49,763 nucleotides of DNA from Candidatus Doudnabacteria bacterium (GTDB taxonomy: Bacteria > Patescibacteriota > Doudnabacteria > UBA920). Shown here in pieces: positions 1 to 49,763 of the stretch; within the stretch, counting starts at the first letter, position 1; each line of letters begins with the position of its first letter. The DNA lies in assembly GCA_003151625.1 (NCBI GenBank), contig PLYC01000023.1, positions 416 to 50,178 on the forward strand. The letters run 5' to 3'. A program made the position numbers and the translations under genes. Under the pieces are notes generated by a model. It ran no database searches. It was given only the letters and a program-made list of their open reading frames with translations, and was not told where the DNA came from.

Positions 1-227
1 AATTGATTTATTTTCCACGTGCTACTGAGATGTTTCACTTCGCACGGTTCCCGCATACTATACCCCACGGCATAGCAGCATGTACTCTTCCAGTACATGG
101 GTTTCCCCATTCGGACATCCACGGATCAAAGCTTATTGCCAGCTCCCCGAGGCTTTTCGCAGGCTATCACGTCCTTCATCGGCTCATATTACCTAGGCAT
201 CCACCGTATACCCTTATATATTTTATA
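1..227 (-). rRNA. rrl: 23S rRNA, 5' portion (runs off the left edge)
   Basis: Minus strand reads AAGGGTATACGGTGGATGCCTAGG...CCGATGAAGGACGTG...CCGAATGGGGAAACCC...GAAGTGAAACATCTCAGTAGC, the conserved 23S 5' domain. The 5' end is estimated by alignment to the canonical start. Confidence 0.97.
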
Positions 228-1747: not shown

Positions 1748-3049
1748 TTATTGCTTCCTTACCAGCCAATCCCCTTTAGCCACCCACTTGTACGACGTTA
1801 AAGCTTCCATCCCCATTGGACCGCGGGCGTGGAGTTTTTGAGTGCTTATGCCCGCTTCCGCGCCCATGCCGAATTCCCCACCATCGGTAAAACGGGTAGA
1901 GGCGTTTTGGTAAACCACAGCCGCGTCAACTTCGTTTAAAAAGCGCGCGATGTGTTTTGGGTTTTTGGATAAAATACTTTCGGAATGCCCGGAAGTCTTT
2001 TGTTTAACAAAGGCCAAACCTTCCTCAAAACTCCCAACCGTTTTTATGGACATTTTTAAAGACAAAAATTCTTTGCCAAAATCTGTAGGCTTGGCTTTGC
2101 GCAGGAACTTCATCGGATAAACATTCTTTAATATCCGATACGATTCGTCATCGGCAAAAATCTCCACGTATCGTTGCCCAATGGGCACCATTGCGCAGCG
2201 CAATGGTGCCCATTGGCTGAAAGCGATAAACTTTTTTGCCAATTCCGACATAACCGCGTTCAAAGATTTACGATGAATAACCACAGTATCCAAAGCATTA
2301 CAAACGTCCGGGCGCTGGGCTTTAGCGTTCACGATTATGTCCGCAGCTTTGGCAACATTTACATCGGCATCCACAAAAATGTGGCAAACGCCGGCGCCGG
2401 TTTCTATAATCGGCAGGCGAGAATTTTTTATTACCCATTCAATAAGGCCTTGGCTCCCGCGCGGAACGAGCACATCTACCAAACCGTGCGCGTTTAACAA
2501 AACTTTTTGCCAATTTTCTTTTGAATCAATCAAACAAACCAAATTAGGCGACAGTCGATGTTTTGCCAAAGCTTGATGTATGAGCGAGACCAAAACTTTA
2601 TTGGTCCGATAAGCCTCGCTTCCGCCTTTTAAAACCAAAGCATTGCCTGTCTTTATGGCCAAGGCCGCCAAGTCTATTGTCACATTGGGTCTGGATTCGT
2701 ATATTACCGCGACCACCCCCAAAGGCACGCTAATTTTGGAAAGATGAAGCCCATTTTTTAAATCTTTCTTTTCCAAAATTTTATTTAACGAATCCGGTAG
2801 CTTAGTTAAAGCTTGTAGACCTTGTTCCATCGATAACAATCGTTTGTCGTTTAAAACCAACCGATCATGCATGTCCACGCGCTGCAAATTTTTTAAATCC
2901 TGGTCATTGGCAGACAAAATCTTTCTCTTATTTTTTTCCAATAATTCCGCCGCGCTAATTAAGATTTTATTCCTTTCGGCCAAACTTAAAAGCGCCAAAC
3001 TCGGTTGGTATTTTTTTGCATTCTGTAATTTAACCAACAAATTATTCAT
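1748..3049 (-). CDS. proA: gamma-glutamyl phosphate reductase
   Basis: VPLGVVAVIYESRPNVT, LKGGSEA, ETGAGVCH, CNALDT, NASTRFTDGGEFGMGAE, STQKLHARGPMG motifs. Confidence 0.97.
   Translation of the reverse strand: MNNLLVKLQNAKKYQPSLALLSLAERNKILISAAELLEKNKRKILSANDQDLKNLQRVDMHDRLVLNDKRLLSMEQGLQALTKLPDSLNKILEKKDLKNGLHLSKISVPLGVVAVIYESRPNVTIDLAALAIKTGNALVLKGGSEAYRTNKVLVSLIHQALAKHRLSPNLVCLIDSKENWQKVLLNAHGLVDVLVPRGSQGLIEWVIKNSRLPIIETGAGVCHIFVDADVNVAKAADIIVNAKAQRPDVCNALDTVVIHRKSLNAVMSELAKKFIAFSQWAPLRCAMVPIGQRYVEIFADDESYRILKNVYPMKFLRKAKPTDFGKEFLSLKMSIKTVGSFEEGLAFVKQKTSGHSESILSKNPKHIARFLNEVDAAVVYQNASTRFTDGGEFGMGAEAGISTQKLHARGPMGMEALTSYKWVAKGDWLVRKQ
2178..2216. repeat. perfect 39-bp palindrome in frame within proA (family B)
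   Basis: CCAATGGGCACCATTGCGC-A-GCGCAATGGTGCCCATTGG. Confidence 0.9.
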
Positions 3050-7690: not shown

Positions 7691-7736
7691 TTTACCCCCA
7701 CACCAATTTGTTCAGACAAATTGGTGTGGGGGTTTA
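7691..7736. repeat. family A palindrome, copy 2
   Basis: ACCCCCACACCAATTTGT-TCAG-ACAAATTGGTGTGGGGGT with TTTA at both ends. Confidence 0.85.
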
Positions 7737-24498: not shown

Positions 24499-24573
24499 GG
24501 GTGTGTAGCTCAGTGGTAGAGCACGTCACTGATAATGACGGGGTCGCAGGTTCGATCCCTGCCACACCCACCA
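24499..24573 (+). tRNA. tRNA-Ile(GAT)
   Basis: GGGTGTG/CACACCC acceptor stem, CGTCA-CTGATAA-TGACG anticodon arm, GTTCGATC T-loop, encoded CCA. Confidence 0.97.
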
Positions 24574-24715
24574 TGTACCATTCGCTCCGCTCAGGTACAT
24601 GGCGCGGCCACGCGCCATATTCATAAGCAGAGCGAATGGTACATGCCCTGCACCGGAGGCCTTCAGGCCGACTGGTACAGGGCCAGTCAACAACACTAAA
24701 ATAAACAACCCCCTT

Positions 24716-29550: not shown

Positions 29551-31008
29551 TCATTCCTGGTGATAGTTCGGCGCTTCTTTGGTAATGGCCACGTCGTGGA
29601 CATGGGATTCTTTTAATCCGGCGTTGGTAATGCGGACAAATTGGGCTTTTTTGTGGAAATCGGCTAAATTTTTAGCGCCGCAGTAACCCATCCCGGCGCG
29701 CAGGCCGCCTATAAGTTGATTTACAACATTCGCCAGCGGACCTTTGTAAGGTACACGGCCTTCTATGCCTTCGGGAACCAATTTTTGCATATTCATTTCA
29801 TTTTCCTGGCCGTAGCGATCCTTACTTCCCTGCTTCATTGCACCCAAAGATCCCATTCCGCGATAAGTTTTAAAACTTCTGCCCTGGTATAAAATCAGTT
29901 CTCCCGGACTTTCGTCCGTGCCGGCAAATAAACTGCCTATCATCACGCTGTCCGCTCCCGCGGCCAGGGCTTTAGCTACATCACCCGAAAATTTAATTCC
30001 GCCATCAGCAACCAGCGGCACCTTGGCTTTGAAGGCTACAGACGAACACTCCATAATCGCGCTAATTTGCGGCACACCGGCGCCGCTAACTATGCGCGTG
30101 GTACAAATACTCCCCGGCCCCATACCTACCTTTATGGCGTCCACGCCGGCCGCTATAAGCGCCCGGGCGCCTTCGGCTGTGGCCACGTTGCCGACCATCA
30201 GTTCTGTCTTCGGGAATGCTTTTTTAATTCTCCTTGTCGCCTCAATCACCCGCTTGGTATGGCCGTGGGCGGTATCTATAACCAAAACATCCACTTTGGC
30301 TTTGACCAAAGCACTCGCCCGGTCAAAATAATCACCCGTCGCGCCAATGGCCGCGGCGGCTAGCAAGCGGCCCAAGCGGTCTTTGGAGGCGTTGGGATAT
30401 TGAATGGTTTTTTGAATATCTTTTACCGTAATTAAACCCTTTAAGATACTATTGGAATCTACCACCGGCAATTTTTCCACGCGATTCTGTTGAAAAATCT
30501 TTTTGGCCTGCTCCAAACTGGTGCCGACGGGAGCGGTAATTACCTTTTTAGTCATTAAATCCCTTACGCGCAACTGCAGGCGCGATTCAAACCGCAAATC
30601 GCGGTGAGTCAAAATGCCCACCAGCTTATTTTTTTCATCCACAATCGGAAAACCTGAAATGCCTCGCTTGGCCATAATTTGCAGGGCATGGGCTATGGTA
30701 TCGTCCGGAGATAAAGTTATAGGATCCACAACCATCCCACTTTCAAAACGTTTCACAGCGCCGACTTCCGCAGCCTGTTCCTCTATGCTCATATTTTTAT
30801 GGAGTACGCCAATGCCGCCCTGCTGTGCCAAAGCTATAGCCAGAGCGCTTTCCGTAACCGTGTCCATGGCACTGCTCATTATAGGGATGGCCAAAGAAAT
30901 ATTTTTGGTCAGCCTGGTTTTTGTCTCCGTCTCGGCCGGCACAACCTCGCTAAAACCTGGCTTAAGCAAAACGTCGTCAAAAGTTAGGGATTGAATAATT
31001 GGTTTCAT
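29551..31008 (-). CDS. guaB: IMP dehydrogenase with CBS pair
   Basis: [48 protein letters not shown]. Confidence 0.98.
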
Positions 31009-31167
31009 AGAATTCCAAATATCAAATTACAAATTTCAAATAAAATCCAAATGTCCAATTGCTAATTTAAGAATTGGACATTTGTTTGATATTGAAGTTG
31101 GAAATTTGAAATTAAAAAATAATTTCAGTTAGTATACTCACTTTGTAACAAATTGTCCAGCGTCGAT

Positions 31168-31210
31168 GGACAATGGGCACCGTTGTGCAGCACAACGGTG
31201 CCCATTGTCC
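31168..31210. repeat. perfect 43-bp palindrome (family B) abutting the purA stop
   Basis: GGACAATGGGCACCGTTGTGC-A-GCACAACGGTGCCCATTGTCC. Confidence 0.9.
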
Positions 31211-32712
31211 TACTGTCTGACAACTATATCTTCCCTTCCCGAGCCAGTTCCGACCAGCAAGATATGTGTTCCAACGTGTTTTTCCAAACGCTGTAAAAAT
31301 GCTTTGGCGGATTTTGGCAAGGAAGATTCATTGTCGGTTCCGTAAATATTTTCGCTCCACCCCGGCCACTGTTCAAATACCGGCACAACTTTTTCCATAT
31401 CCCACGGAGTAGGAAGCTGGCCGGGTAAAAGTTTTTTTCCATTTAACTTATAACCAACCACAACCGGCAATTTTTTTATTCCGGAAAGCATATCGAATCT
31501 GGTCAACGCGAGCCATTTTGGACCATTTACACGAATAGCGTAAGTCAGCCAAGGGATATCTATAAACCCTACGCTCCTGCCGCGACCGGTTGTAGCGCCA
31601 CGCTCATCCCCCAAAACCTGGAAGTACTGGGACAGTTCGGCATTCGATGCTTTTTGAGCATTAATTTTTTGCAGGCGCTCTTGTAAAAATTCCGCCTTTT
31701 TTTGTTTGTCAGTAAACAATCCAATATTTTTTTTAACAAACTCCATGGCCTCCTGTCTCTGCCACATTTCCGAGGGGAACGGCCCGGCGCCAACGCGGGT
31801 CGGCAGCGTTTTTACCACCATTAGTGTGACGTCAAAATTTTGCATGGGCAGCCCGGTGCCAACGGCCGCGCCAAAAGCTGCGGAATTACCAGACGAAACA
31901 AACGGGTAAGTGCCAAAATGGCTGTCCAGCCCCAAAGCCTGCGCGCCTTCAAACAACATTCGCTGATGTTTTTTTGAGGCTTGGTGCAGTACAAAAGAAG
32001 TATCGGCAATAAATGGTTTTATTTTTGGCGTAAACGCCAAAAGCATATCGGCAACATCGGTCGGAGTGGGTATAGAACCGCTGATGAGATTCTTGGCCTT
32101 CATGTCCTTAAATACCGGCAATAAAGTTTTATGCAAAAGTTCCAAAATACCCACCAATTCCTTTTTTCCCAAAAAAATCTGTCCAACTAAAGGTGATATA
32201 CGAAGTTTATACAAACCCTCTAGCGGCCCAATGCCCTTGCCCGTAGTGCCGACCTTCCCTTTGCCGCGAACATACTCCAGCCAAGCCTCCAATAGCCCGT
32301 GCCAAGGCGTCCAGACCGGCGACATTTGGTCTAAATAAATTTTTGGCAATTTACCGCCCAAAACTTTTTTACTTTGTTCCAACTCTTCCAAAAATAAACG
32401 CAAGTCCACCAACTCTCCCCTGCCCATAACGCACTCCTTGCCCTGAGCCAGACCGCACGGAATAAGGTGGCTTACTAACTTTTGGCCATCCGATGTAAAC
32501 ACCGTATGCCCGGCATTGGCGCCGCCGGAAAAACGCACCGTTACCTCGTAATGCGCCATTACGAGGTCTATAATTTTCCCCTTGCCCTCATCCCCCCAAT
32601 TCCCCCCAACCACGACTAAATTTCGGTAAGGAGCAAGGACTTTTTTAAGTATCTTACCGGCGTTTGATGTCTTTGCAGATGATTTTATCATATTGATTAA
32701 TTTACTTTCCAC
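31210..32712 (-). CDS. purA: adenylosuccinate synthetase
   Basis: WGDEGKGK, GGANAGHT, GTTGKGIGP, FEGAQ, GTYPFVSS, TRVGAGPFP, ERGATTGRGR. Confidence 0.96.
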   Translation of the reverse strand: MESKLINMIKSSAKTSNAGKILKKVLAPYRNLVVVGGNWGDEGKGKIIDLVMAHYEVTVRFSGGANAGHTVFTSDGQKLVSHLIPCGLAQGKECVMGRGELVDLRLFLEELEQSKKVLGGKLPKIYLDQMSPVWTPWHGLLEAWLEYVRGKGKVGTTGKGIGPLEGLYKLRISPLVGQIFLGKKELVGILELLHKTLLPVFKDMKAKNLISGSIPTPTDVADMLLAFTPKIKPFIADTSFVLHQASKKHQRMLFEGAQALGLDSHFGTYPFVSSGNSAAFGAAVGTGLPMQNFDVTLMVVKTLPTRVGAGPFPSEMWQRQEAMEFVKKNIGLFTDKQKKAEFLQERLQKINAQKASNAELSQYFQVLGDERGATTGRGRSVGFIDIPWLTYAIRVNGPKWLALTRFDMLSGIKKLPVVVGYKLNGKKLLPGQLPTPWDMEKVVPVFEQWPGWSENIYGTDNESSLPKSAKAFLQRLEKHVGTHILLVGTGSGREDIVVRQ

Positions 32713-44827: not shown

Positions 44828-46864
44828 TTACTCAGCCGAGCCTGCAACAAATTGGCTGTTGTATAACGATGCGTAAAAACCGTTTTTCGCAAGCAGCTCT
44901 TTATGATTTCCCTGCTCGACAATATTGCCGTCATTCATTACTAAAATTAGGTCGGCATCGCGAATGGTTGAAAGACGATGGGCAATAACAAAGCTGGTTT
45001 TGCCTTTCATCAGGTTTTCCATGGCTTTTTGGATCAACAGTTCGGTGCGCGTGTCAACCGAGCTCGTTGCCTCGTCCAAAATCAACATTGGGGTCTTAGC
45101 CAACATCGCTCTGGCAATTGTCAGCAGTTGTTTCTCGCCTTGGGAAATATTATCCGCTTCTTCGTTTAATTCCAAACCATAGCCCTGGGGCAACGCGTGG
45201 ATAAAGTGATCGGCATGGGCGGCTTGGGCGGCGGCAACTATTTCCTCATCAGTTGCATCCGGTTTGCCGTAAGCAATATTTTCACGGATCGTTCCATTAA
45301 ACAGCCAAGTGTCCTGCAACACCATGCCAAATAATTTTCTGACTTCCGCGCGCTTCATATCGCGGGTGTCAACTCCATCAATCTTAATCGCGCCTTTATT
45401 AACATCGTAAAATCGCATTAGCAGATTTACGATTGTAGTTTTGCCCGCACCGGTAGGACCGACAATAGCAATTCTTTGCCCCGGTTTAATATCGGCGCTA
45501 AAGTCCTTAATAATGATTTTGTCCGGGTTGTAGCCAAACACTACCTTGTTGAAATCCACCGCACCCTTTGAGCCTTCAAGCACGATATTTTTTTCATCTT
45601 CGGCGCTTTCTTCTTTCTCATCCAAAAATTCAAATACGCGTTCTGCGGCGGCGGCCGTTGACTGCATCACATTAGCGATGCTCGCCGTTTGGACTATTGG
45701 TTGATTAAACTGGTTGACATATTGAATGAATGCCTGGATATCGCCAATCTGTATTGTGCCCTTAATCGCCAGCCAGCCGCCAACCACCGAAACTCCCACA
45801 AAACCCAAATTGCCGACGAAGGTCATAATCGGCATCATTAATCCTGACAAAAATTGCGACATCCAGGCACTGCTGAAAAGCTTTGTGTTAATCTTTTCAA
45901 ATTTCTCGATTGACCGCTGCTGCCCGTTAAAAACACGCATAACATTGTGGCCGGCGTACATCTCTTCTATATGGCCGTTAAGCTCACCGAGGGAGTCCTG
46001 CTGTTCTTTAAAATAGTGCTGTGATTTTTTGATAATTACCGCAATTAAGATAAAGCTAAGCGGAACGAGTACCAACGAAACAAGCGTCATTTGCCAGGAG
46101 ATTGTAAACATCATAATCACAATCCCGATAATCATCGTGATTGAGGTGACAATTTGAGTCAAGCTCTGGTTTAGGGTTTGGCTCACGGTATCAACATCGT
46201 TTGTTACCCGCGACAAAGTTTCGCCGAAAGTTCTTTTGTCAAAATATGTCAAGGGCAGGCGGTTAATTTTTTCCGAAATGTCGCGTCGGAACTGATAGGT
46301 AATTTTCTGCGAAACGCCGGTCATAATCCAGCCCTGAATGTAGCTAAAAAGCGCGCTTAAAATGTAAAGGAGCAAAAGTTCAATAACAAAATACTTCAGC
46401 TTGCCAAAATTGATTTGCGGTCTTACCGAAAAATCCAAACTTTTAAGGCGATCAAGAATACTTGAAGAAATCTGCGCAAGCCTCGCGGGCGGCACATTTT
46501 GAAGCAACTGCGCGCCGGTCGTCCCGGGTGCAATCTTAAAAGTCTTGGGAAGAATGGCAATAATCTGGTCGTACGATTTCATATCAATAAAATCACTAAC
46601 AACCTGATTGGTCATATTGCCGAGAATTTTAGGGCTGGCGATGGCAAAAACCGTGCTGGCGATGGCAAAGACAAAGACAAAAATTATTGAAATCCAAAAC
46701 GGCTTCATATATGAAACCAGTTTTTTCATCGTCGCTGAAAAGTTTTTTGGCTTTTCAACCAGCGCCATTGCGGCGCGCCCGGCCCCGCCGGGCCCCATTG
46801 GCATTGCCGATTTTGGTTGGTTTGCGCCGGTCTTGGCTGATTGCAATTTAGGATCTTCGCTCAT
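44828..46864 (-). CDS. heterodimeric ABC exporter, subunit with consensus Walker B
   Basis: TMD plus NBD; GPTGAGKTT, ISQGEKQ, LILDEATSSVD, IAHRLST. Confidence 0.95.
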   Translation of the reverse strand: MSEDPKLQSAKTGANQPKSAMPMGPGGAGRAAMALVEKPKNFSATMKKLVSYMKPFWISIIFVFVFAIASTVFAIASPKILGNMTNQVVSDFIDMKSYDQIIAILPKTFKIAPGTTGAQLLQNVPPARLAQISSSILDRLKSLDFSVRPQINFGKLKYFVIELLLLYILSALFSYIQGWIMTGVSQKITYQFRRDISEKINRLPLTYFDKRTFGETLSRVTNDVDTVSQTLNQSLTQIVTSITMIIGIVIMMFTISWQMTLVSLVLVPLSFILIAVIIKKSQHYFKEQQDSLGELNGHIEEMYAGHNVMRVFNGQQRSIEKFEKINTKLFSSAWMSQFLSGLMMPIMTFVGNLGFVGVSVVGGWLAIKGTIQIGDIQAFIQYVNQFNQPIVQTASIANVMQSTAAAAERVFEFLDEKEESAEDEKNIVLEGSKGAVDFNKVVFGYNPDKIIIKDFSADIKPGQRIAIVGPTGAGKTTIVNLLMRFYDVNKGAIKIDGVDTRDMKRAEVRKLFGMVLQDTWLFNGTIRENIAYGKPDATDEEIVAAAQAAHADHFIHALPQGYGLELNEEADNISQGEKQLLTIARAMLAKTPMLILDEATSSVDTRTELLIQKAMENLMKGKTSFVIAHRLSTIRDADLILVMNDGNIVEQGNHKELLAKNGFYASLYNSQFVAGSAE

Positions 46865-49562: not shown

Positions 49563-49763
49563 AGAAAGGAGGTGATCCATCGACAGCTTCCGCTACCGAT
49601 GCCTTGTTACGACTTAGCCCCAGTTATGAGCTTCGGCTTAGGCCACCTTACGGTGAACTTTAGCCGCTTCCCACTTCCATGGCTTGACGGGCGGTGTGTA
49701 CAAAACCTGAGAACGTATTCACCGTAACGAGGCTGATTTACGGTTACTAGCGATTCCGGCTTC
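49563..49763 (-). rRNA. rrs: 16S rRNA, 3' portion (runs off the right edge)
   Basis: Minus strand GTACACACCGCCCGTCA...AAGTCGTAACAAGG...GGATCACCTCCTTTCT, including the anti-SD. Confidence 0.98.

What the first reader, a model, noticed from the sequence alone, without database searches (positions are those of the whole stretch)
2178..2216. Perfect palindrome translated inside ProA, with a compensatory-variant twin after purA
The 39-bp (13-codon) perfect palindrome encodes QWAPLRCAMVPIG just before the VEI segment, where ProA normally has a short loop. An intergenic copy (31168-31210) has the same core CAATGGGCACC-R-TTG-Y-GC-A-GC-R-CAA-Y-GGTGCCCATTG, and every difference is mirrored in the other arm. 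This indicates a mobile or self-correcting hairpin that can land in frame in a housekeeping enzyme, analogous to Rickettsia palindromic elements.
Basis: partly seen in the sequence, partly recalled or inferred. Interest (0 to 1): 0.75.

Follow-up and report, generated by a model that had tools for sequence, protein, structure and literature searches.

The report
REP-type mobile hairpin inside ProA
The palindrome translated inside this bacterium's proline-synthesis enzyme is a copy of a small mobile DNA hairpin (a REP-like element with its own dedicated transposase in related genomes) that is scattered through ultra-small Patescibacteria genomes and now and then lands in frame in essential genes.

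Summary
Both palindromes exist exactly as described: 19+1+19 nt at 2178-2216 inside proA, and 21+1+21 nt at 31168-31210 touching the purA stop codon. Every difference between them is mirrored. Most ProA relatives are 414-419 aa; this one carries about 17 extra residues.

One scan of 185,579 species genomes found 79 sites. Of these, 67 lie in 30 MAGs, 25 of them labelled as Patescibacteria lineages. The ends (A)CAATGGG...CCCATTG(T) are constant, while inner stems differ and stay complementary (340 of 345 unconstrained pairs).

In four of those genomes a roughly 207-220-aa IS200-like HUH/Y1 transposase gene abuts the hairpin, and three are bracketed on both sides. Its best family match is "REP-associated tyrosine transposase" and its best fold match is PDB 4ER8. 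This is the REP/RAYT layout.

Of the non-coding copies, 41 of 60 sit within 60 nt after a stop codon. Eight of 69 copies are in frame within conserved proteins: ProA, RF1, LigA (twice), a SpoU methylase, FemAB, Fmt and GH1.

REP/RAYT systems and intragenic REPs are already known, so this is a new member of a known kind. No transposase lies in the window, and mobility is inferred, not shown.

The parts
2178..2216 (.). Copy 1 of the palindromic element. It is a perfect 19+1+19 palindrome. The family core CAATGGG...CCCATTG spans 2179-2215, with inner-stem variant CACCA and centre CGCAGCG.
   Evidence: I11. Covariance model R1 scores it at 56.7 bits, E 3.8e-14. It is stop-free in all six frames. 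G+C is 0.63 against 0.42 for the window.
2177..2230 (-). Extra segment of ProA, residues 274-291 (FIAFSQWAPLRCAMVPIG). Residues 279-291 are the translated palindrome. The net gain over the usual ProA length of about 416 aa is 16-17 residues.
   Evidence: In the AlphaFold2 model the segment prolongs helix 260-284 and then runs as a low-confidence loop (pLDDT below 50 at 282-290) into strand 296-299.
1748..3049 (-). proA (glutamate-5-semialdehyde dehydrogenase), 433 aa and intact. It is the first gene of a proA-proC-proB-containing stretch.
   Evidence: The ORF keeps all columns that are invariant in A1, including Cys250.
31168..31210 (.). Copy 2 of the palindromic element. It is a perfect 21+1+21 palindrome with core 31171-31207, inner-stem variant CACCG and centre TGCAGCA.
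   Evidence: I7. Model R1 scores it at 63.4 bits, E 3.9e-16. No T-run follows and no terminator-like site is called.
31210..32712 (-). purA ORF (500 aa). Its TAG stop codon (31212-31210) overlaps the last base of copy 2.
29551..31008 (-). guaB (IMP dehydrogenase), the next gene downstream on the same strand. Copy 2 therefore lies between two co-directional genes, directly behind the upstream one.

Best explanation
The two palindromes are copies of a REP-type (repetitive extragenic palindrome-like) element family of Patescibacteria. In related genomes this family goes together with a dedicated HUH/Y1 'RAYT-like' transposase.

**What is shown**
- The family has fixed ends, (A)CAATGGG ... CCCATTG(T), a TTG/CAA inner block, and a genome-specific 5-bp inner stem that stays perfectly complementary.
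- The family is dispersed at a few copies per MAG.
- Non-coding copies lie mostly just behind stop codons.
- The transposase gene is bracketed by copies of the element.
- A minority of copies lie in frame inside conserved genes.

**What is inferred from the biochemistry of IS200/IS605 TnpA and E. coli TnpA-REP (recalled)**
- The hairpin forms on single-stranded DNA, for example at the replication fork.
- The transposase recognises it by shape plus the conserved foot, cuts through a phosphotyrosine link, and pastes the single strand into another single-stranded site.

**How this explains the finding**
- Most surviving insertions are those behind genes, where a hairpin is harmless or useful at the mRNA 3' end. 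Copy 2 behind purA is one of these.
- Both window cores have no stop codon in any frame. An insertion whose net length is a multiple of three in a surface loop simply adds 13-17 residues. This is what happened in ProA between the helix after the catalytic Cys250 and strand VEIF.
- The mirrored differences have two possible causes. Only hairpin-forming copies may be propagated, and/or intrastrand template switching may 'correct' quasi-palindromes. Which process dominates is not shown.
For: - **Family and distribution.** The scan found 78 loci, of which 75 are distinct, holding 79 sites. Sixty-seven sites are in 63 loci of 30 MAGs: 25 labelled as Patescibacteria lineages, 3 labelled 'bacterium' and 2 labelled 'Gammaproteobacteria'. 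A single MAG holds up to 9. About 5 matches are expected by chance (my estimate from 20 fixed bases, 9 gap lengths and 596 Gb).
- **Complementarity where the search pattern did not force it.** Of the inner-stem pairs, 340 of 345 are complementary, with 11 different 5-mers. Of the centre pairs, 154 of 209 are complementary. The covariation score is 0.318 against 0.121 in shuffles (0 of 500 reach it), and 94.7% of cells are paired against 35-51% when the partner is slid.
- **Transposase.** Pfam Y1_Tnp hits 3 of the 139 neighbouring ORFs, and tblastn finds a fourth.
  - L047: copies lie 3 nt before the called ORF (a TTG start) and 4 nt after it.
  - L056: copies lie on both sides.
  - L074: the right copy is 9 nt after the ORF, and a left copy was found at 1057-1105.
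  - L060: a copy ends a few nt before the ORF called from 2045 (its ATG lies at about 2051).
- **Transposase identity.** The best and only NCBIfam family is REP-associated tyrosine transposase. The invariant HUH motif (MPNHFH) and the Tyr in YIHQNP are present in 22 of 22 aligned sequences. The best fold match is 4er8_A, 'REP associated tyrosine transposase bound to a REP hairpin', at E 3.4e-5 and TM 0.52/0.65, followed by ISDra2 and IS608 TnpA. JGI already names several homologues RayT.
- **Position.** Of the 60 non-coding copies, 41 lie at most 60 nt after the stop of an ORF of at least 100 aa, half of them within 13 nt. Only 1 has just a gene start nearby.
- **In-frame copies.** Eight of 69 copies lie inside Pfam- or NCBIfam-recognised proteins.
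- **ProA.** Relatives P0003 and P0022 carry peptides of the same kind (QW..L...M.PI) at other registers of the same loop. On the ProA tree they lie apart from P0001+P0002, and P0003 is sister to the insert-free P0012 with support 99/97.
- **Reading frames.** Both window cores are stop-free in six frames, as are 43 of 69 family cores.
Against: - No transposase gene lies in the 49.8-kb window (tblastn), and the rest of the source genome could not be examined.
- There are only two copies in the window. The next covariance-model hit has E 0.47.
- Copy numbers in the MAGs are low (at most 9), against the hundreds seen for classical REPs.
- The GTAG or CGTC tetranucleotide that tags the described REP superfamilies is absent from both window copies. 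GTAG (the G being the core's last base) is formed at the 3' side of only 6 of 69 copies.
- The transposases score 45-58 bits, below the NCBIfam cut-off of 80, and have no sequence-level PDB hit.
- The transposase model has mean pLDDT of only 69.
- Copy 1 has C/G instead of the usual A/T next to the core; A occurs at -1 in 62 of 69 copies and T at +1 in 66 of 69.
- In LigA the palindrome-coded 13 residues replace a native loop of about 9 residues rather than simply adding to it, so 'clean insertion' is not established everywhere.
- Mobility itself has not been observed.
Confidence: 0.8

Rival explanations
1. The hairpin is a conserved functional signal that evolves in place and is not mobile. 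It could be a transcription terminator, an mRNA 3' stabiliser or a protein-binding site. The copy in ProA would then be a coincidental or convergent occurrence.
For: Of the non-coding copies, 41 of 60 lie just behind stop codons. Many are flanked by A-runs and T-runs: AAA on the left in 19 of 69 and TTT on the right in 15 of 69. The ends are conserved across many lineages.
Against: - A signal that evolves in place does not explain a block of about 48 nt that is absent from most ProA orthologues.
- It does not explain the same element inside seven other proteins.
- It does not explain transposase genes bracketed by it.
- Copy 2 has no T-run and is not called a terminator.
- A terminator or stabiliser role may still be a secondary use.
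Confidence: 0.08
2. The element is a miniature inverted-repeat element (MITE) made of two terminal inverted repeats and moved by a DDE transposase, duplicating a TA target site.
For: TA follows the core in 39 of 69 copies and precedes it in 29 of 69. The element is little more than two inverted ends.
Against: - The flanks co-vary as mirror images (AAA/TTT, TTA/TAA, ATA/TAT). Flank pairs are complementary in 44, 46 and 61 of 64 rows. They therefore behave as part of the palindrome, not as a direct duplication.
- No DDE transposase was seen among the 139 neighbouring ORFs, whereas four Y1 transposases abut copies.
Confidence: 0.05
3. The motif is a DNA-uptake signal for natural competence, arranged as inverted pairs as in Neisseria, and is enriched by biased uptake and recombination.
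For: The window and its relatives encode type IV pilus genes. Genome-specific 'dialects' of a conserved motif recall uptake-sequence dialects (recalled). Competence is reported for Saccharibacteria (abstract of PMC10187176, seen in the listing).
Against: - The density is about two per 50 kb here and at most 9 per MAG, far below the roughly one per kb of known uptake sequences (recalled).
- Uptake sequences arise by point mutation and do not add about 48 nt to a gene.
- The association with a transposase is unexplained.
Confidence: 0.03
4. The palindromes are chance matches or an assembly artefact.
For: None beyond the fact that palindromes can arise from chimeric assembly.
Against: - The shuffles argue against chance.
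- The same insert is present in an independent 92%-identical protein record, P0002.
- The same core, 37 of 37 nt, occurs in another assembly, L042.
- Sixty-seven further copies occur in 30 assemblies.
Confidence: 0.01

Closest known systems
REP elements with REP-associated tyrosine transposases (RAYT, TnpA-REP). The examples are E. coli REP/BIME with YafM and the structure 4ER8.
   Same: - The element is a short palindrome (33-41 nt core).
- Copies are dispersed and lie mostly behind ORFs.
- The transposase gene is bracketed by copies.
- The transposase has the HUH motif and a single catalytic Tyr.
- Its best fold match is 4ER8 and its best family is NF047646.
   Different: - There is no GTAG tag.
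- The stems are perfect, so the element looks the same on both strands apart from the centre.
- There are few copies per genome.
- The same ends are kept across many candidate lineages rather than one genus.
- The transposase is longer (about 206 aa against a 146-position family profile) and scores below the family cut-off.
GTAG- and CGTC-tagged REP superfamilies with intragenic REPs (Di Nocera et al. 2013, PMC3733652; passages read).
   Same: That paper reports REPs predominantly downstream of coding regions, REP ends that supply stop codons, REPs lying entirely within ORFs of known proteins (many in replication and repair genes), and head-to-head and tail-to-tail dimers. All of these are seen here, including LigA and a tail-to-tail form inside a transposase gene.
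   Different: - Neither tag is present here.
- The phyla listed there for GTAG repeats (Proteobacteria, Cyanobacteria, Chloroflexi, PVC) do not include Patescibacteria.
- The paper's Additional file 3, which lists the intragenic REPs, was not seen.
Rickettsia palindromic elements (RPE).
   Same: Both are palindromic repeats inserted in frame in genes that apparently stay functional, in small genomes of host-dependent bacteria. This rests on the statement in PMC3733652 and on recalled papers by Ogata et al.
   Different: - RPE-1-type elements are longer, about 100-150 bp (recalled).
- RPE-4 and RPE-6 carry the CGTC tag.
- According to PMC3733652, CGTC REPs lack a dedicated transposase. Here one is found.
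- No sequence relationship was tested or is expected.
IS200/IS605 insertion sequences (IS608, ISDra2).
   Same: They have the same enzyme fold (ranks 2-19) and the same Pfam Y1_Tnp family. They also recognise hairpins on single-stranded DNA (recalled).
   Different: - Those elements carry different left and right subterminal hairpins and move the transposase gene itself.
- Here nearly all copies are solo hairpins of about 40 nt, and both flanks of the gene carry the same palindrome family.
REPINs (REP doublets forming hairpins) of Pseudomonas (Bertels and Rainey; recalled, not read here).
   Same: Two inverted units form one hairpin as the replicating unit, there is a single associated RAYT, and the pair persists over long periods.
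   Different: - The element here is only about 37 nt in all.
- Each 15-nt arm is self-complementary only in some variants, for example CAATGG-GCA-CCATTG in the window copies.
- Whether the arm or the whole palindrome is the unit is open.

Membership tests
REP/RAYT system | A short (about 20-40 nt) palindromic repeat that can form a stable stem-loop. | tested here: met
   The cores are 33-41 nt. The window copies fold at -24.1 and -25.5 kcal/mol, z -7.9 and -9.3.
REP/RAYT system | Several dispersed copies in one genome. | tested here: inconclusive
   The window holds only 2 copies in 49.8 kb. Related MAGs hold up to 9 matches to a strict pattern. The source genome beyond the window could not be searched.
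REP/RAYT system | Copies are mainly extragenic, downstream of ORFs or between co-directional or convergent genes. | tested here: met
   Of 60 non-coding copies, 41 lie at most 60 nt after a stop codon. Window copy 2 abuts the purA stop and lies before guaB.
REP/RAYT system | A Y1 (HUH) transposase gene flanked by copies of the repeat. | tested here: met
   The genes in L047, L056 and L074 are bracketed on both sides, and L060 on one side. This was seen in related genomes, not in the window. The relative orientation of the flanking copies can be read only from the loop; in L047 the two loops point the same way.
REP/RAYT system | The transposase carries the HUH motif and a catalytic tyrosine and has the RAYT fold. 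| tested here: met
   H80, H82 and Y140 are invariant in 22 of 22 sequences. Foldseek's top hit is 4er8_A at E 3.4e-5. NF047646 is the only NCBIfam hit but scores 45-58 bits, below the cut-off of 80. The model's pLDDT is 69.
REP/RAYT system | A conserved GTAG (or CGTC) tetranucleotide at one end of the repeat. | tested here: not met
   The window copies are flanked by GCC/GCT and GGA/TCC. TAG follows the core, forming GTAG with the core's last base, in 6 of 69 copies. The conserved foot is ACAATGGG/CCCATTGT instead. The tag definition is taken from PMC3733652.
REP/RAYT system | Cleavage and mobilisation of the repeat by the transposase. | not testable with these tools
   This needs biochemistry or population data.
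Rickettsia palindromic elements | In-frame insertion in genes that remain intact. | tested here: met
   ProA is intact with all invariant columns. Seven further cases lie inside recognised domains.
Rickettsia palindromic elements | Sequence family of Rickettsia (CGTC tag for RPE-4/6, about 100-150 bp for RPE-1) with no associated transposase. | tested here: not met
   The termini and size are different, and a transposase is associated. The RPE features come from PMC3733652 and recall. No RPE sequence was compared.
IS200/IS605 insertion sequence | A transposase gene carried between two different subterminal hairpins and moving as one unit in several copies. | tested here: inconclusive
   The flanking hairpins belong to the same palindrome family, and solo hairpins far outnumber genes (67 copies against 4 genes in the loci). 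The copy number of the gene per genome could not be counted.
DNA uptake sequence | Very high density (about one per kb) of a short motif with no link to a transposase. | tested here: not met
   There are two copies per 49.8 kb and at most 9 per MAG, and the motif is linked to a transposase. The density figure for known uptake sequences is recalled.

The most novel reading that the evidence does not exclude
The hairpin and its transposase form an old, largely vertically kept pair that spans much of the Patescibacteria. Transposases only 45-59% identical are flanked by hairpins with the same 8-nt foot. On this reading the pair is more than a passenger in these roughly 1-Mb genomes.

- The hairpins are kept perfectly symmetric by a hairpin-templated correction process. 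This would account for centres that vary within one genome yet are mostly palindromic.
- They serve as gene-end signals.
- They are repeatedly taken over as protein loop segments.
- The ProA loop between the AKK and VEIFAD segments is a true hot spot. It was hit at least three times by different dialects of this family and also by a second palindrome-compatible peptide family (VSRVTLDT in P0004, P0006 and P0027). A possible reason is that the native flanks (GGCAAAAA / TTTTTGCC) themselves form an inverted repeat.
Probability: 0.2. Interest if true: 0.7.

Novelty: new member of a known kind. Interest (0 to 1): 0.5.

Why it matters
- **Genome biology.** Patescibacteria have some of the smallest and most streamlined bacterial genomes, yet they keep a REP-like hairpin and its transposase across many lineages and tolerate it inside essential genes (proA, prfA, ligA, fmt).
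- **Annotation.** It explains odd 13-17-residue inserts and false N-terminal extensions such as MVPIV... and MMPIV... in these MAGs.
- **Assembly.** It flags a repeat that can break assemblies.
- **Research use.** It offers a compact and very regular system in which to study how Y1 transposases read hairpins and how palindromes stay perfect.
- **Limits.** It does not change what is known in principle. REP/RAYT systems and intragenic REPs have already been described.

Tried and rejected
- **Rfam, whole window at gathering thresholds.** Only rRNA ends and two tRNAs were found, and nothing at either palindrome.
- **Covariance model R1 over the window with filters off.** There was no third copy; the next hit has E 0.47.
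- **Peptide patterns for decayed in-frame copies in the six-frame translation of the window.** Only the two known sites were found.
- **Search for the second peptide family (SRVTLD and variants) in the window and all loci.** No match was found, so its DNA was never seen.
- **phmmer of the transposase against PDB sequences.** No hit at E up to 0.01. The link to 4ER8 comes only from the fold search.
- **tblastn of the three transposases against the window.** Nothing scored better than E 5.8.
- **Terminator scan at copy 2.** No site was called.
- **Palindrome 32543-32567 inside purA.** It lies in a conserved, ungapped part of PurA and is not an insert.
- **Literature.** Nine searches and two papers read in passages turned up no paper that describes this repeat or links RAYT/REP with Patescibacteria. 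The one paper holding both phrases concerns an archaeal transposase. Subscription journals and 1.7 million unsearched PMC articles are not covered.
- **Twelve of the 79 scan sites lie in records labelled outside Patescibacteria.** By the mismatch count, which includes the centre, four have 3-7 mismatches and sit in ordinary coding sequence (L027, L034, L072, L078; L034 and L078 lie in unnamed membrane-protein-like ORFs, the two proteins aligning MGTSMGTIAAI[GT]PIA). A fifth, L031, has 4 mismatches and lies in an unscanned 213-aa ORF at a contig end. L069 has 3 mismatches but lies 3 nt past a 665-aa ORF. Six (L003, L005, L043, L044, L068, L071) have 0-1 mismatch and an unknown relation to the family. 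All twelve were left out of the family statistics.
- **Not checked.** The source genome and the DNA behind P0002, P0003, P0022, P0004, P0006 and P0027 therefore stayed unexamined.
Full report
**1.

Positions 2178-2216 are a perfect 19+1+19 palindrome, and 31168-31210 a perfect 21+1+21 palindrome. The 11-mer CAATGGGCACC, with up to one mismatch, occurs only at these two sites on both strands. That is 4 matches against 0.77 expected, and 0 of 100 shuffles reached 4. As single-stranded DNA the two hairpins fold at -24.1 and -25.5 kcal/mol (z -7.9 and -9.3).

The first palindrome lies in the minus-strand ORF 1748..3049. This is a full-length ProA by NCBIfam (477 bits, cut-off 289). There the palindrome encodes QWAPLRCAMVPIG, residues 279-291.

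The second palindrome overlaps by one base the TAG stop of purA and precedes guaB on the same strand. The two arms differ at two positions, and both differences are mirrored.

**2. It is an insert in ProA**

The ProA profile needs 411 positions for 428 residues. Solved ProA structures show a gap exactly there.

Of the 120 listed relatives, most are 414-419 aa. I aligned 31 of these 120, chosen by rank and by unusual length, so the fractions below are not prevalence estimates. Twenty-four have the short loop.

An AlphaFold2 model (mean pLDDT 84) puts the extra residues 274-291 at the end of helix 260-284 and in a low-confidence loop (pLDDT below 50 at 282-290) before strand 296-299. This is downstream of the catalytic Cys250. 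That is the kind of place where extra residues are tolerated.

**3. Other ProA relatives have related inserts in the same loop**

- P0002 (92% identical) has the same insert with one change at the central codon.
- P0003 carries QWESLCATMTPIV, and P0022 carries QWASLPDAKMPIVG. Both are at other registers of the loop.
- These peptides are what this family gives in its first reading frame. Their inner parts fit other 'dialects' of the family seen in DNA elsewhere (AGTCA in L035 and L059; CATCT in many loci).
- On a ProA tree built without the loop columns, the three groups lie apart. P0003 is sister to the insert-free P0012 (99/97), and three changes are needed on the best tree. Starred branches alone do not exclude a single origin.
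- P0004, P0006 and P0027 carry a different shared peptide (VSRVTLDT) at the same loop. I could not see their DNA.

**4. The family elsewhere**

The window comes from a Patescibacteria-like organism. Its best-named ProA relatives are Patescibacteria MAGs, and it holds type IV pilus genes and pro and pur genes, and begins and ends within rRNA genes.

One scan of 185,579 species genomes used a pattern that fixes only the ends (CAATGGG / CCCATTG) and the TTG/CAA block. It returned 78 loci. Three of them (L023, L048, L057) duplicate others, which leaves 75 loci and 79 sites. About 5 sites are expected by chance (my estimate).

Sixty-three loci with 67 sites belong to 30 MAGs:
- 25 are labelled as Patescibacteria lineages (Saccharibacteria, Yanofskybacteria, Doudnabacteria, Uhrbacteria, Paceibacterota, 'Patescibacteria group').
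- 3 are labelled 'bacterium'.
- 2 are labelled 'Gammaproteobacteria'.

The labels are those of the records and may be imprecise. Twelve loci from other phyla were set aside. By the mismatch count, four of them have 3-7 mismatches in ordinary coding sequence (L027, L034, L072, L078), L031 has 4 mismatches in an unscanned ORF at a contig end, L069 has 3 mismatches just past an ORF, and six have 0-1 mismatch and an unknown relation.

One locus (L042) has a core identical, 37 of 37 nt, to the ProA copy.

**5. Anatomy of the family (67 copies plus the 2 of the window)**

- Core length is 33-41 nt.
- A precedes the core in 62 of 69 copies, and T follows it in 66 of 69.
- The next flank positions vary as mirror images: AAA/TTT, TTA/TAA, ATA/TAT.
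- The five stem positions that the pattern left free take 11 different forms. They are complementary in 340 of 345 pairs.
- The centre is the most variable part and is still complementary in 154 of 209 pairs.
- On the alignment, 94.7% of cells are paired against 35-51% with slid partners. The covariation score is 0.318 against 0.121 in shuffles (0 of 500 reach it).
- Copies within one MAG share the inner-stem form and differ in the centre.
- Model R1 finds only the two known copies in the window. It finds one extra copy in 289 kb of loci, L074 1057-1105.

**6. The transposase**

Of the 139 ORFs next to or around the copies, three are Pfam Y1_Tnp (IS200-like) proteins of 207-212 aa. tblastn adds a fourth, in L060.

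- In L047 one copy ends 3 nt before the called ORF (a TTG start), and another starts 4 nt after it.
- L056 is likewise bracketed.
- L074 has one copy 9 nt after the ORF and one about 15 nt before its start codon.
- In L060 a copy ends a few nt before the ORF called from 2045.
- Two further homologues begin with MVPIV... or MMPIV.... This is the translated right arm, so a copy lies directly upstream there too (an inference from protein sequence).

The only NCBIfam family hit is 'REP-associated tyrosine transposase', at 45-58 bits, below its cut-off of 80. HUH (MPNHFH) and the Tyr of YIHQNP are invariant in 22 of 22 aligned sequences; I aligned 18 of the 120 listed hits, the 3 translated proteins and the L060 ORF.

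An AlphaFold2 model of moderate quality (pLDDT 69) matches best 4er8_A, 'REP associated tyrosine transposase bound to a REP hairpin' (E 3.4e-5, TM 0.52/0.65). ISDra2 and IS608 transposases follow.

The family is large: 2,736 proteins at E up to 0.001. The named ones among the best 120 are from Patescibacteria lineages, and JGI already calls several 'REP element-mobilizing transposase RayT'.

No such gene lies in the window.

**7. Where copies sit**

Of the 60 non-coding copies, 41 lie at most 60 nt behind the stop codon of an ORF of at least 100 aa. Half of those are within 13 nt. One copy has only a gene start nearby, and 18 have neither. Window copy 2 is of this kind.

Eight of 69 copies are in frame inside recognised proteins:
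- ProA (the window)
- RF1 (L001)
- a SpoU methylase (L016)
- a family-1 glycosidase (L025)
- LigA at the same site in two MAGs (L036, and a decayed copy in L058)
- a FemAB-family protein (L037)
- Fmt (L073)

All three reading frames are used. Both window cores are free of stops in all six frames, as are 43 of 69 family cores.

In LigA the 13 coded residues stand where the window's own LigA has a native loop of about 9 residues. Gain and replacement therefore cannot always be told apart.

The transposase gene of L060 itself carries an in-frame 10-residue insert. It is made of the two arms in swapped (tail-to-tail) order, and its dialect (CACCG) is that of window copy 2.

**8. Mechanism**

The following are shown: a hairpin family with a fixed foot and free but complementary interior; its dispersal; its place behind genes; its bracketing of a Y1 transposase gene; and its in-frame copies.

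The following is inferred from IS200/IS605 and E. coli TnpA-REP biochemistry (recalled). The enzyme reads the hairpin on single-stranded DNA and moves it as a single strand.

The mirrored differences fit selection for hairpin formation at each round of copying. They also fit correction of quasi-palindromes by intrastrand template switching (recalled). Neither was tested.

**9. Comparison with what is known**

Di Nocera et al. 2013 (PMC3733652; passages read) describe REPs tagged by GTAG or CGTC. They report that these lie mostly behind ORFs, sometimes supply stop codons, sometimes lie within genes of known function (many in replication and repair), form head-to-head and tail-to-tail dimers, and in the GTAG case accompany RAYT genes. 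They also place Rickettsia RPE-4 and RPE-6 among the CGTC REPs.

The present family shares all of this except the tag. It comes from a phylum not listed there. Nine literature searches found no description of it (with for the one candidate).

I therefore file it as a new member of a known kind. It works like a REP/RAYT system and meets most membership features. It fails the GTAG/CGTC tag, and the features that need the whole source genome or an experiment remain open.

**10. Limits**

- The source genome beyond the window was not seen.
- The DNA of the ProA relatives was not seen.
- Population-level polymorphism was not examined.
- Copy numbers come from a strict pattern on incomplete MAGs and are lower bounds.

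Noticed in passing
window 1-227 (-) and 49565-49763 (-): The window starts with the 5' end of a 23S rRNA gene and ends with the 3' end of a 16S rRNA gene, both on the minus strand. On this contig, 16S and 23S are therefore about 49.3 kb apart with some 45 genes between them. The rRNA genes are unlinked.
   Followed up: no
ProA relatives P0004, P0006, P0027 (alignment A1, columns about 355-370): A second shared peptide, VSRVTLDT, sits in the same ProA loop in three relatives that lie apart on the tree. The peptide could be encoded by a perfect palindrome, which would make it a second element family at the same spot. No DNA was available, and no match was found in the window or the loci.
   Followed up: partly
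L060 about 2203-2245, inside the transposase ORF 2045-2704: The RAYT-like gene itself carries an in-frame 10-residue insert (TVPIGCQWAP) that is absent from 21 of 21 other family members aligned. It is made of the two arms of the element in swapped, tail-to-tail order.
   Followed up: partly
window 2150-2245 (-): The native ProA codons on either side of the insert (…LAKK… and …IFAD…) are themselves an inverted repeat, GGCAAAAA / TTTTTGCC, and pair in the predicted fold of the 96-nt stretch. This could bear on why the loop is hit repeatedly.
   Followed up: no
window 7694-7733: A perfect 18-bp-stem palindrome (ACCCCCACACCAATTTGT / ACAAATTGGTGTGGGGGT, 4-nt loop) lies between the divergent starts of ligA and a LysM-like gene. 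Its likeness to the family model is only weak and non-significant (E 0.47).
   Followed up: partly
window 24572-24645: A 35+4+35 nt imperfect palindrome (86% complementary) starts two bases after a tRNA gene at 24499-24570.
   Followed up: no
window 31039-31093 and 31145-31175: The purA-guaB spacer holds more inverted repeats built on TTGTCCA/TGGACAA-like words. One of them overlaps the left foot of copy 2.
   Followed up: no
window 31615-31755 (purA residues 320-366) and 44828-46864: PurA has about 32 more residues than the solved PurA 3ue9, lying between residues 319 and 367. The MsbA-like ABC transporter is 678 aa, with about 58 more residues than the profile positions its match spans plus some 46 unaligned N-terminal residues. 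No palindrome was listed at the PurA stretch.
   Followed up: partly
window 32543-32567: A perfect 11+3+11 palindrome lies inside purA. It encodes part of a conserved, ungapped stretch (VMAHYEV), so it is not an insert.
   Followed up: yes
L053:2-1981 and L061:3-1544: The GyrB genes next to copies of the element in two Patescibacteria MAGs carry intein splicing domains (Pfam Intein_splicing).
   Followed up: no
L007, L017 (CAZGDX01), L075 (CAYHPG01): Two MAGs labelled 'uncultured Gammaproteobacteria' carry typical copies of the element. The transposase homologue P0206 is reported on a contig of 59,435 nt, the same length as CAZGDX010000002.1. This points to either a wrong label or transfer outside Patescibacteria.
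   Followed up: no
L003, L005, L043, L044, L068, L071: The same end motifs are present in six hairpins from records of other phyla, with 0-1 arm mismatch by the count (R1 scores 33-51 bits). L005 (Anaerolineales UBA6092) scores highest. L069 (Achromobacter) also matches R1 (31-33 bits) but has 3 arm mismatches. Their relation to the family is unknown.
   Followed up: no
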